Shown: piece after piece, positions 17,901-23,696 of the stretch
How positions within the stretch are numbered: the stretch's first letter is position 1
Layout: every line of letters begins with the position of its first letter
NCBI GenBank assembly: GCA_964016885.1
Contig: OZ024764.1
Coordinates: 11,966,001 to 12,030,000, forward strand
Origin: Eledone cirrhosa
Taxonomy: Eukaryota
Direction of reading: 5' to 3'
Length of the DNA: 64,000 bases
Notes under the pieces: model-generated
The model's database searches: none
What the model was told of the DNA's origin: nothing
The model's input: the letters and a program-made list of their open reading frames with translations, nothing else
Made by a program: the position numbers and the translations under genes

Positions 17901-18119
17901 TACAATAAGCCTGTCATATTTGCACAACAGCTTCCCTGACATGGATGGGACAGTGATGGCGATGGTGGTGGTAGTGATGTTGGGTGGTGGTGGGGGTTAA
18001 AAGGAGGGGGAGGAGGAGTGAGGTGGGGGAGGGGAGAAAATATATTGTCTGTGTCACAGCAATGTATTGTTGATTCAGTGGTGATGGTGGAGGTGGTTGT
18101 TGTTAGGTGGGGTTTTTTT

Positions 18120-19060
18120 TTATAGCCCCAGGCCAGTCCTGATCCAGTAGACCTATTTATCAAAGATGTTCCAACTGTGACCATCATATCTTTTATTATT
18201 CAGACACAGTATATCTAGGATTACATTATCTAATGTACAGTATAGTAGTTAGTATTAGTGGCTATAGTTGTTCTTTAGCCCTAGGTCAGACCTGATCCAG
18301 TAGACCTATGATCAAAGATGTCCAACTGTGATCATCTCATTCTATATTCAGACAGTGTATCTAGGACTACATTATCTAATGTACAGTATAGTAGTTAGTA
18401 TTAGTGGTTATAGTTGTTGTTTAGCCCGAGGTCAGTCCTGATCAAGTAGACCTATGATCAAAGATGTTCCAACTGTGACCATAGTATATCTAGGACTACA
18501 TTATCTAATGTACAGTACAGTAGTTAGTATTAGTGGCTATAGTGGATGTTTAGCCCTAGGTCAGTCCTGATCCAGTAGACCTATGATCAAAGATGTTCCA
18601 ACTGTGACCACAGTATATCTAGGACTACATTATCTAACGTACAGTACAGTAGTTAGTATTCGTGTCTATAGTTGTTGTTTAGCCCTAGGTCAGTCCTGAT
18701 CCATTAGACCTATGATCAAAGATGTTCCAACTGTGACCACAGTATATCTAGGACTACATTATCTAATGTACAGTACAGTAGTTAGTATTAGTGGCTATAG
18801 TTGTTGTTTAGCCCTAGGTCAGTCCTGATCCAGTAGACCTATGATCAAATATGTTCCAACTGTGACCATCCTGTCTTTTATTCAGACATAGTGTATCTAG
18901 GACTACATTATCTAATGTACAGTATAGTAGTTAGTATTAGTGGCTATAGTTGTTGTTGTTGTTCTTTAGCCCTAGGTTAGTCCAGATCCAGTTGACCTAT
19001 GATCAAAAATGTCCAACTGTGACCATCTCATTCTATATTCAGACATAGTGTATCTAGGAC
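18120..19060. repeat. ~129-bp satellite (about 6.5 units, some longer)
   Basis: TTTAGCCCTAGGTCAGTCCTGATCCAGTAGACCTATGATCAAAGATGTTCCAACTGTGACC...CTAGGACTACATTATCTAATGTACAG repeated; same unit at 55811-56805. Confidence 0.95.
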
Positions 19061-19611: not shown

Positions 19612-20015
19612 ATATAAAAGGAAAAATCAGTGATGCATCTGGACTCAGTTTACTGCATGTTACAATTGTTTCACCGGCAGATAGCTCGAGACACAATCAT
19701 TGTATGGATCTGTCTGATTCTAGAACTGCAGGTTCTTCGGACACTTGCAATACTTTCTTAACAAATTTTCTCATGTGAGAAAATTTGTTCCGAAAGTATT
19801 GCAAGTGTCCGAAGAACCTGCAGTTCTCAAATCAGACAGATCCACACACTGATCGTGTCTCAAGCTATCTGCCAGTGAAACAATTGTAACACGCAGTAAA
19901 CTGAGTCCAGATGCATCACTGATTTTTCCTTTTATATTACATCACACTCTGCTCTGTAAGAACATAGAGTGCTCAACTGGCATACCACTTATGGAAGCAT
20001 CATAGCTACCATTAA
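19612..20015. mobile_element. Fold-back family D: 326-bp palindrome plus tail, with variant hammerheads on both arms
   Basis: Arms 19612-19773 and 19776-19937. Right arm: GTGT-CCGAAGA(19809)-61 nt-GAAACAATTGTA-ACAC. Tail GCTCTGT...ATAGAGTGCTC. Confidence 0.85.
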
Positions 20016-20029
20016 ACACACACACACAC

Positions 20030-20065
<36 letters not shown>

Positions 20066-20082
20066 TGTAATAAACAACATTC

Positions 20083-20136
20083 CATTTACCAGTGGTTTCT
20101 TAAAAGCAAAAAATTTTGCTTTCAATCCTCAGAATG
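20083..20136 (-). ncRNA. Identical hammerhead on the opposite arm
   Basis: Exact reverse complement of 20150-20203. Confidence 0.88.
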
Positions 20137-20149
20137 AAAAAATCCTGGT

Positions 20150-20203
20150 CATTCTGAGGATTGAAAGCAAAATTTTTTGCTTTTAAGAAACCACTGGTAA
20201 ATG
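20150..20203 (+). ncRNA. Canonical type I hammerhead ribozyme, GUA triplet
   Basis: CATT|CTGAGGA|TTGAAAGCAAAA-TT-TTTTGCTTTTAA|GAAA|CC-ACT-GGT|A|AATG; all core residues and three helices present; predicted cut after 20199. Confidence 0.88.
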
Positions 20204-20322
20204 GAATAATTGCCTTATGTTGTTTATTACATAACTATTAAGCTCTGTTACCTACACAGAGCACTCTTTTTTCCTGGACTTTTCCGACGGAATTACTTCA
20301 TTTATATATATATATATATATA

Positions 20323-20670
20323 TAGTAGTAGAACACTGGAGGGTTATATAGTAGAGCACTCAGTCCATGGGACGAATTTGGTAGAAGTAGGGGCCGCATA
20401 AGGGTAAACATTTGTTCTTGGTATGGCGAACTAACTGTTGTGGACCTACTTATATATATATATATTTAATTAGAAACTAAACATATATATATAACTATTG
20501 CATTACCAAAGGTTTCAGGACTCTAGACAATATTAACATATGTTTAGTTGGTTCATCAGATAAAAAGTACTTTTCATCTGATGAGCAAACTAAACATATG
20601 TTAATATTGTCTAGAGTCCTTTGGTAATGCAATAGTTATATATATATGTTTACTTTCTAATTAAATATAT
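20323..20670. mobile_element. Fold-back family F element with hammerhead-like core
   Basis: Palindrome about 20465-20670 centred on AAAAGTACTTTT. Minus arm: TAT-CTGATGA-36 nt-GAAACCTTTGGTA-ATG; the plus arm has lost GAAAC. GAGCACTC at 20353. Confidence 0.7.
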
Positions 20671-20718
20671 ATATATATATGTATCTATATATTTAATTAG
20701 AAAGTAAACAACACAATA

Positions 20719-22858: not shown

Positions 22859-22888
22859 TAGACTATATATAATATTTATATATATATA

Positions 22889-23242
22889 CCAAGATAATAA
22901 TAAATGGAAACTATATTTATAAAACCATATTTATTTTATTATATATATTTCAAGGGCGACCAAGCAAAGACTATCCAGCGAATCTTCGGATCGTTAAGGT
23001 GTGATCCCCATGGGTATGTCATTATTTATAAAACAAATTTTGTATTTTATCTGATGAAAGCGCACCAAGAGTTGCTTGGTCGCCCTTGAAATATATATAA
23101 TAAAATAAATATGGTTTTTATAAATATAGTTTCCATTTATTATTATCTTGGAATATTTACTCCAGTAACTTGTTGAGTGCTCTATATCAGTTATAAACAT
23201 TTATGTTTGACGGAATTCCAACAAATTAAATACAACTCCTAC

Positions 23243-23247
<5 letters not shown>
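22889..23247. mobile_element. Fold-back family A element with hammerhead at 23043-23107 (+)
   Basis: TATTTTAT|CTGATGA(23051)|AAG..GCACCAAG/CTTGGT.GC.CTT|GAAA|TATATA|TA|ATAAAATA. 22889-22967 is the inverted copy of the 3' part. Tail ACTC...GAGTGCTC (23175). Confidence 0.85.
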
Positions 23248-23278
<31 letters not shown>

Positions 23279-23279
<1 letters not shown>

Positions 23280-23620
23280 GAGGTTATATTTAATTTGTTG
23301 GAATTCAACAAGCTTAAAAAAATTATTTCTATAACTGATATAAAGCACTCAACAAGTAAGTGGAGTAAATATACAATATATTAACAAATGGAAACTATAT
23401 TTATAAAACCATATTTTATTTTATTATTACATATTTCAAGGGCTACCAAGGCAAATTATGGTGCACTTTCATCAGATAAAATACAATACAGATTAGTTTT
23501 ATAAATGTATTTTATCTGATGAAAGCGCACCATAATTTGCCTTGGTGGCCCTTGAAATATGTATATTAAAATAAATATGGTTTTATAAATATAAGTTTCC
23601 ATTTGTTAATATATTGTATA
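23279..23620. mobile_element. Fold-back family A element, hammerheads on both arms
   Basis: TCATCAG at 23469-23475 (-) and CTGATGA at 23516 (+) with GAAA at 23554; long tail on the left. Confidence 0.85.
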
Positions 23621-23696
23621 TATATGATTTCTAAAGAATGAAACAGTTCTAGTCCTGTAGAATCTCATGCTATAATATATATATTAATATATATAT

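What the first reader, a model, noticed from the sequence alone, without database searches (positions are those of the whole stretch)
20060..20302. Intact back-to-back pair of canonical hammerheads (family E)
Both strands encode an identical 54-nt hammerhead with a complete core, 12-bp helix II, 3-bp helix III and a GUA site. Transcription from either direction yields a ribozyme preceded by its own antisense copy. The long hairpin should therefore compete with ribozyme folding and would also be a dsRNA substrate. This is the best candidate for an active ribozyme here.
Basis: partly seen in the sequence, partly recalled or inferred. Interest (0 to 1): 0.7.

Follow-up and report, generated by a model that had tools for sequence, protein, structure and literature searches.

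The report
Fold-back stub of Hydra-Penelope retrotransposon
The two mirror-image hammerhead ribozyme motifs are real, but they are the cut-short, folded-back end of a known kind of jumping gene, repeated hundreds of times in this genome and predicted to be locked off by their own antisense copy; the one unusual lead is that the full-length parent carries a second hammerhead with a likely uncuttable site.

Summary
Observation largely confirmed; interpretation reversed. Window 20060-20302 is a head-to-head pair of 5'-truncated ends of a Hydra-clade Penelope-like retroelement (PLE), inserted in (TA)n, with a 65-nt tail on one arm only. The arms share 59 identical nt including a complete type I hammerhead (helix II 11 bp, not 12; palindromic helix III). 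The genome holds 3,924 exact copies of a 27-nt piece of the motif; 32 of the first 100 listed are such back-to-back pairs. The parent is a ~3.75-kb element with a 707-714-aa RT/GIY-YIG ORF showing the Hydra diagnostic motifs. Predicted hammerhead-fold probability inside the hairpin is about 1e-46 to 1e-49, and both copies have damaged helix I extensions, so this is a poor, not the best, candidate for activity. Opposite-strand hammerhead pairs are published for PLEs, and this scan reported the same class on other DNA of this genome. New here: the parent's 3' UTR holds a second hammerhead, 1.1-1.8 kb upstream, with an intact core but GUG at the site in 35 of 35 copies (terminal: GUA-type A17 in 118 of 118); possibly an enzyme-only dimer partner. 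No RNA data were available.

The parts
20034..20061 (.). (TA)n target, left flank
   Evidence: sequence; family copies sit in TA/CA runs
20060..20150 (-). Inverted, tail-less, 5'-truncated PLE end (left arm); 11-nt deletion near 20079/20080 relative to the family
20080..20139 (-). Type I hammerhead, core 20132-20087, helix I 7 bp, predicted cut after 20087
20138..20150 (.). Junction of the two truncated copies: 11-nt unpaired spacer, 2-nt overlap at 20149-20150
   Evidence: overlap read from the sequence against L007-L011
20149..20237 (+). Sense 5'-truncated PLE end (right arm), ending 38 nt behind the cleavage site
20149..20204 (+). Type I hammerhead: core from 20154, helix II 20161-20186 (11 bp), palindromic helix III 20190-20198, A17 at 20199, helix I cut to 5 bp by the truncation
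20238..20302 (+). One-sided PLE tail (about 65 nt, ending 103 nt behind the cleavage site); in full elements it continues into the 5' UTR of the next unit
20242..20262 (+). Small hairpin just behind the first end point; a similar hairpin follows the second end point in full elements
20303..20324 (.). (TA)n target, right flank
   Evidence: sequence

Best explanation
This is a young insertion of two truncated, head-to-head copies of the 3' end of a Hydra-clade Penelope-like retroelement in a TA repeat, and its two hammerheads are likely silent passengers, predicted to be trapped by their own antisense arm. Shown: homology to the end of a ~3.75-kb element with an RT/endonuclease ORF, one-sided tail, TA flanks, variable junctions, both arms from one subfamily. 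Inferred mechanism: the endonuclease cuts both strands of (TA)n; reverse transcription starts from each DNA end at two fixed points on one uncut element RNA (38 and 103 nt behind the ribozyme site), both copies stop early, and they are joined at a short microhomology. Any read-through transcript would form a ~78-bp duplex (a likely ADAR/Dicer substrate) rather than cleave. In the parent the hammerhead likely cleaves slowly, as a dimer or with protein help.
For: Family at 98-99% identity across many contigs; 3,924 exact GUA-type 27-mers, 0 in the reversed control; 16 back-to-back pairs against 1 convergent and 1 tandem within 500 nt among the first 100 listed places; 24 of 30 best loci show an inverted arm (one partial). 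Walk to the parent; uninterrupted ORFs of 707-714 aa in 5 of 30 ORF-bearing loci; RWK, DKT, YRDD, CxCX5C, CxxC, CxH found, DKG absent, as listed for Hydra in PMC8557442 section 11; AlphaFold model pLDDT 93 with telomerase RT as best structural match, E 3.6e-8. Arms agree at the variable N7 position in 21 of 21 paired loci (18 G/G, 3 U/U). Fold probabilities. Two RT start sites, cleavage and extension of both strands, and use of uncut RNA were shown in vitro for another PLE (PMC11167929). 19 of 30 ORF-bearing copies read through the upstream cleavage site and only 1 begins at it.
Against: No RNA evidence either way for this locus. The two-primer model is transferred from a Poseidon-clade element; self-priming on an antisense template is the published alternative (PMC3846280). 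Only 3 variants were shared between arms against 25 private ones, so the one-template inference rests on N7 alone, and those loci were selected for similarity to the tailed arm. Pfam gave no RT or GIY-YIG hit on the ORF itself (4 and 3 of 69 homologues hit weakly). Equilibrium folding ignores proteins and kinetics.
Confidence: 0.9

Rival explanations
1. The back-to-back pair is a functional, regulated ribozyme module (antisense switch) active at this locus.
For: Both cores are intact and identical; the isolated minus-strand 66-mer has the hammerhead as its minimum-energy fold.
Against: Intactness is explained by youth (1 substitution in 154 nt to the nearest copies); fold probability about 1e-46 to 1e-49 in context; the antisense arm is made first on both strands; hundreds of like pairs with random spacers; opposite-strand copies cannot form the dimer that helix III calls for.
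Confidence: 0.04
2. The fold-back is itself a non-autonomous mobile unit (MITE- or retrozyme-like) that is copied as a hairpin.
For: High copy number; L002 has nearly the same junction as this locus.
Against: Spacers differ from locus to locus (11-142 nt) and are nested truncations of one parent sequence; no terminal inverted-repeat/TSD signature; retrozymes are direct tandem repeats (PMC7229834 passages).
Confidence: 0.05
3. The hairpin is an assembly or library fold-back artefact.
For: Perfect 59-nt identity between arms; no contig of the four laid runs spans the stretch.
Against: The arms differ by an 11-nt deletion and by the tail, and the tail-less arm ends at the family's fixed end point in most loci; the structure is published for PLEs.
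Confidence: 0.01

Closest known systems
Hydra clade of C-terminal EN+ Penelope-like elements, e.g. Hydra-1_Obim and Penelope-13_HM (Craig et al. 2021, PMC8557442; read: passages, section 11, supplement search passages and part 2 of 59)
   Same: RWK, DKT, CxCX5C linker, CxxC/CxH around the EN end; (TA)n targeting; 3' hammerhead with palindromic helix III (same 4-bp stem as Hydra-1_Obim in File S2) and often a non-G-C base of helix II; Penelope-13_HM is listed with a 5'-truncated inverted copy and hammerheads on both strands.
   Different: A distinct family (N-terminal 40 aa about 60% identical to Hydra-1_Obim, counted by eye); unit ~3.75 kb against <3 kb; tail ~65 nt against 30-40; longer helix II; second, GUG-site hammerhead in a long microsatellite-rich 3' UTR.
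Minimal/dimeric hammerheads of metazoan PLEs (Cervera and De la Pena 2014, PMC4209133; read: parts 1-2 of 4)
   Same: Long helix II, short helix I, palindromic helix III; dual motifs 100-700 bp apart on opposite strands already noted; monomers inactive in vitro.
   Different: U-A instead of the conserved G10.1-C11.1; no pair with one uncleavable member is described in the parts read.
Poseidon PLE of Anolis, PAc (Frangieh et al. 2024, PMC11167929; read: parts 1-2 of 4)
   Same: Two fixed 3' end points defining a tail, AT-rich targets, hammerhead upstream of the end points.
   Different: Different clade; there the ORF begins inside the hammerhead, here the ATG lies 220 nt behind the site.
Non-LTR retrozymes (PMC7229834 passages; bioRxiv 10.64898/2026.07.22.740005 part 1 of 5 and passages)
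   Same: Type I hammerheads of PLE origin.
   Different: Retrozymes are direct tandem repeats that can release circles; this locus is inverted and cannot.

Membership tests
Type I hammerhead ribozyme | Conserved core CUGANGA / GAAA / NUH with three helices | tested here: met
   A17 in 118 of 118 terminal copies, core near-invariant, N7 and loop 2 variable
Type I hammerhead ribozyme | G10.1-C11.1 pair and stable helix III of canonical motifs | tested here: not met
   U-A at 10.1-11.1; helix III hairpin +0.4 kcal/mol as monomer, -8.2 as duplex; 0 Rfam hits. Such deviations are common in Hydra motifs
Type I hammerhead ribozyme | Self-cleavage | not testable with these tools
   needs in vitro assay or raw RNA reads
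Penelope-like element (EN+) | Telomerase-like RT in a single ORF | tested here: met
   in the parent, not in the window; tblastn finds no ORF remnant in the window
Penelope-like element (EN+) | C-terminal GIY-YIG endonuclease | tested here: inconclusive
   GIY-YIG-like strand pair and motifs at about residues 573-600; Atlas neighbours carry PF01541 in 18-58% of members; 3 of 69 homologues hit PF01541; no direct hit on P0001 and the domain was not fold-searched alone
Penelope-like element (EN+) | pLTR in partial tandem, inverted 5'-truncated copy, one-sided tail | tested here: met
   64 of 118 terminal arms carry the tail, 0 of 35 internal ones
Hydra clade | RWK, DKT (not DKG), CxCX5C linker, CxxC and CxH near the EN end | tested here: met
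   against PMC8557442 section 11; a GxKF-like string occurs only at residue 504, not N-terminally
Hydra clade | Insertion into (TA)n | tested here: met
Hydra clade | Placement in an RT phylogeny with named Hydra sequences | not tested
   named reference sequences were only visible in a supplement and were compared by eye
Non-LTR retrozyme | Direct tandem repeats, each with a hammerhead | tested here: not met
   inverted arrangement at this locus

The most novel reading that the evidence does not exclude
The parent family encodes a one-way double hammerhead: a self-inserted upstream copy in the 3' UTR keeps its catalytic core but has a fixed uncleavable G17, so that in the dimer fold it would act only as enzyme on the terminal site 1.1-1.8 kb downstream, giving one cut per unit without a second tandem unit. 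For: G17 in 35 of 35 internal and 0 of 118 terminal copies; 344 exact GUG 27-mers, 15 of 19 examined with a same-strand GUA copy within 5 kb downstream; present in 4 of 5 copies with an uninterrupted ORF; shared variants at 1 of 32 core/helix I/helix III sites against 36 of 178 in the adjacent UTR (p 0.02) and 14 of 100 third codon positions (p 0.12). Against: folding gave no gain for the dimer in 3 of 4 elements; two other Hydra families have one motif only; G17 could be neutral or only protect against an internal cut.
Probability: 0.2. Interest if true: 0.55.

Novelty: new member of a known kind. Interest (0 to 1): 0.27.

Why it matters
The flagged locus itself is ordinary retroelement debris. 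Two things make the family useful. First, the role of hammerheads in PLEs is an open question (PMC8557442, PMC11167929); a family whose internal copy has exactly the change that blocks cleavage of that site while sparing its catalytic half is a natural experiment on whether these ribozymes cut in vivo and work as dimers. Second, several hundred near-perfect fold-backs of this one family would be ready-made dsRNA if transcribed, which bears on the sources of A-to-I editing and small RNAs in a genome that is probably a cephalopod's (inferred only from the likeness to Hydra-1_Obim).

Tried and rejected
Rfam scan: 0 hits. RNA evidence: no RNA holder listed; the four runs were contigs of unrecorded kind from one study, none spanning the stretch, so ends and editing could not be read; the single A>G row there reflects family variants. 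A 76-nt upstream query found only its own locus. The '1039 candidates' figure appeared for two unrelated queries and was not used as a copy number. Pfam and PDB sequence searches of the ORF gave nothing useful. Dimer-versus-monomer energies were uninformative: dimer minus two monomers +0.8, +0.4, +0.4, -5.2 kcal/mol, and the terminal monomer alone was cheapest in all four. Pile-up of 5' ends at the cleavage site: 1 of 30, not an excess (one search was a faulty first version and is not used). Search for G17 motifs in other families among fetched loci: none, but few other families were caught. The bacterial promoter scan is irrelevant to this genome; only its hairpin coordinates were used. Literature searches for an uncleavable internal or enzyme-only hammerhead in retroelements listed nothing on it; subscription papers (e.g. 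the Terminon paper, recalled only) and bioRxiv supplements were not visible and may bear on that claim. Naiad, Neptune and Poseidon assignments were rejected on domain order and motifs.

Full report
1. Observation. The window at 20060-20302 is an asymmetric fold-back between two (TA)n runs. A descriptor scan finds complete type I hammerhead cores at +20154-20199 and -20132..20087. The arms are identical over 59 nt; the left arm lacks 11 nt that the right arm and the family have; 20238-20302 has no mirror. The RNA folds into one hairpin, -131 kcal/mol, z -22.7. A strict descriptor gives 2 hits in the window and none in 100 shuffles. Rfam finds nothing at gathering threshold.

2. It is one of many. 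The best 40 candidates in the genome are 95-100% identical. An exact 27-mer across the site occurs 3,924 times, its reversed control 0 times. Among the first 100 listed places, 16 adjacent pairs are back-to-back within 500 nt, 1 convergent, 1 tandem; extrapolated, about 600 pairs. Of the 30 best loci, 24 show an inverted arm (one partial; these loci were chosen for likeness to the tailed arm). The spacer is 11-142 nt in the 20 loci parsed, made of nested truncations of one upstream sequence; this locus has the shortest. The tail-less arm and the tailed arm end at fixed points, 38 and 103 nt behind the cleavage site. In 21 paired loci the arms always agree at N7, 18 G/G and 3 U/U, although U is present in 16 of 116 terminal arms; other variants were mostly private (25 against 3 shared).

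3. The parent. Walking upstream led to a unit of about 3.75 kb (L064): end repeat with hammerhead and tail, 5' UTR, ORF, long microsatellite-rich 3' UTR, end repeat. Five of 30 ORF-bearing loci have uninterrupted ORFs of 707-714 aa, 91-97% identical. Pfam does not name the protein, but its model (pLDDT 93, 69-sequence alignment) matches telomerase RT best, Atlas neighbours carry RVT_1 and GIY-YIG in part of their members, and it has RWK, DKT, YRDD, CxCX5C, CxxC and CxH, the Hydra-clade diagnostics of PMC8557442 section 11. That paper describes inverted 5'-truncated copies and a one-sided tail as typical of PLEs; its supplement lists Hydra hammerheads with palindromic helix III, the same 4-bp stem in Hydra-1_Obim, and Penelope-13_HM with motifs on both strands. 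PMC4209133 already reports dual motifs on opposite strands 100-700 bp apart. The window holds no ORF remnant. Earlier notes of this scan reached the same class for other loci of this genome; I had the Hydra reading before consulting them, and they led me to Hydra-1_Obim and the twin hairpins.

4. How it likely works. Shown: structure and family membership. Inferred from PMC11167929, where a PLE protein cut and extended both strands, started at two RNA sites that define the tail, and used uncut RNA: two cDNAs primed from the two ends of a break in (TA)n, started at the two end points, stopped early and were joined at a 2-nt overlap. Self-priming on an antisense template is the published alternative (PMC3846280). 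Both arms run through the cleavage site, and 19 of 30 ORF-bearing copies do so upstream of the ORF while 1 begins at the site, so most templates were uncut. For the ribozymes at this locus, the antisense arm is transcribed first on either strand; the computed probability of the hammerhead fold is 8e-49 (+) and 2e-46 (-), against 0.002 and 0.012 for the isolated motifs and 0.012 for a native end. Related motifs were inactive as monomers and weak as dimers (PMC4209133). The locus is therefore a poor candidate for activity; direct tandem arrays such as L065 are better. Transcription, cleavage and editing could not be examined.

5. The unusual part lies in the parent. Its 3' UTR holds a second, tail-less, 5'-truncated copy of the end, flanked by TA/TG repeats, 250-500 nt behind the stop codon and 1.1-1.8 kb before the terminal copy. 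Among de-duplicated hits in L001-L098, 35 of 35 internal copies (classed by their upstream sequence) have G at position 17 and 118 of 118 terminal copies have A; GUG is not cleaved by hammerheads (PMC4191386 passages). The internal core is otherwise kept, with N7 varying (A 21, G 11, U 2, C 1). The GUG 27-mer occurs 344 times; 15 of the 19 places compared have a same-strand GUA copy within 5 kb downstream, 1 upstream. Of 13 downstream stretches, 8 hold both motifs, 4 the internal only, 1 neither; 4 of the 5 uninterrupted-ORF copies hold both. In a double-hammerhead fold each copy's catalytic half acts on the other's site, so G17 is the change that would block the internal cut and spare the terminal one. 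Shared variants touch 1 of 32 core, helix I, helix III and site positions, against 36 of 178 in the adjacent UTR (p 0.02) and 14 of 100 third codon positions (p 0.12) (copies are related, sample sizes differ, and the UTR has slippage-prone runs). Against: no folding gain for the dimer in 3 of 4 elements; two other Hydra families have a single motif (7 of 12 loci); with about nine differences in 100 nt, sparing the 11 core positions is unremarkable by chance; a neutral or merely protective change remains at least as likely. Searches listed no description of such a pair, within the limits of the library.

6. Verdict. The finding is a new family member of a known kind: Hydra-clade PLE debris whose paired hammerheads are a footprint of integration. 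Interest 0.27. The one-way double hammerhead of the parent is given probability 0.2 and would merit about 0.55.

Noticed in passing
L065:4759-6029 (also L046; L134:1457-2192): Direct tandem arrays of the same family's end, period about 300-400 nt, each with a hammerhead arm (GUA confirmed for both L134 copies). These retrozyme-like arrays are better candidates for active dimeric cleavage than the flagged hairpin.
   Followed up: no
L085, L095, L096, L097, L098: 5 of 30 ORF-bearing copies begin within 3 nt of the tail end point (+100/+101 from the cleavage site), as expected if the unit boundary is the RNA's 5' end or the template is one turn of a circle.
   Followed up: partly
window 20242-20267 and L064 just behind the tail end: Similar hairpins follow both end points, matching the twin-hairpin lead of earlier scan notes; the window's substitution at 20257 turns a G-U pair of the first hairpin into G-C.
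   Followed up: partly
window 20447-20683: Neighbouring, older fold-back with decayed hammerhead-like cores of another family; other copies mostly 73-89% identical.
   Followed up: partly
window 19612-19937: 326-nt fold-back beside a TA run, unrelated to this family's loci.
   Followed up: no
window 6538-6583, 22881-23624, 45937-45975: Further hammerhead-like motifs of other families, the 23-kb ones in adjacent fold-backs.
   Followed up: no
L064:4285-4245 (- strand): Polypyrimidine tract ending in CAG about 65 nt upstream of the terminal hammerhead; could be a 3' splice site like the Penelope intron. Untested.
   Followed up: no
L069-L098, last 300 nt of the ORF: Variants shared by 3 or more copies fall at 14 of 100 third codon positions against 7 of 200 first and second positions: the ORF was under purifying selection in recent source lineages.
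   Followed up: partly
L099-L125 and L145-L156: Two more abundant Hydra-like families (the second about 45-60% identical in protein to P0001), each with a single 3' hammerhead with palindromic helix III.
   Followed up: partly
window 18115-19060: Tandem repeat of about 129-158 nt, 6-7 copies.
   Followed up: no
window 41885-42012: Perfect 128-nt palindrome beside a TA run.
   Followed up: no
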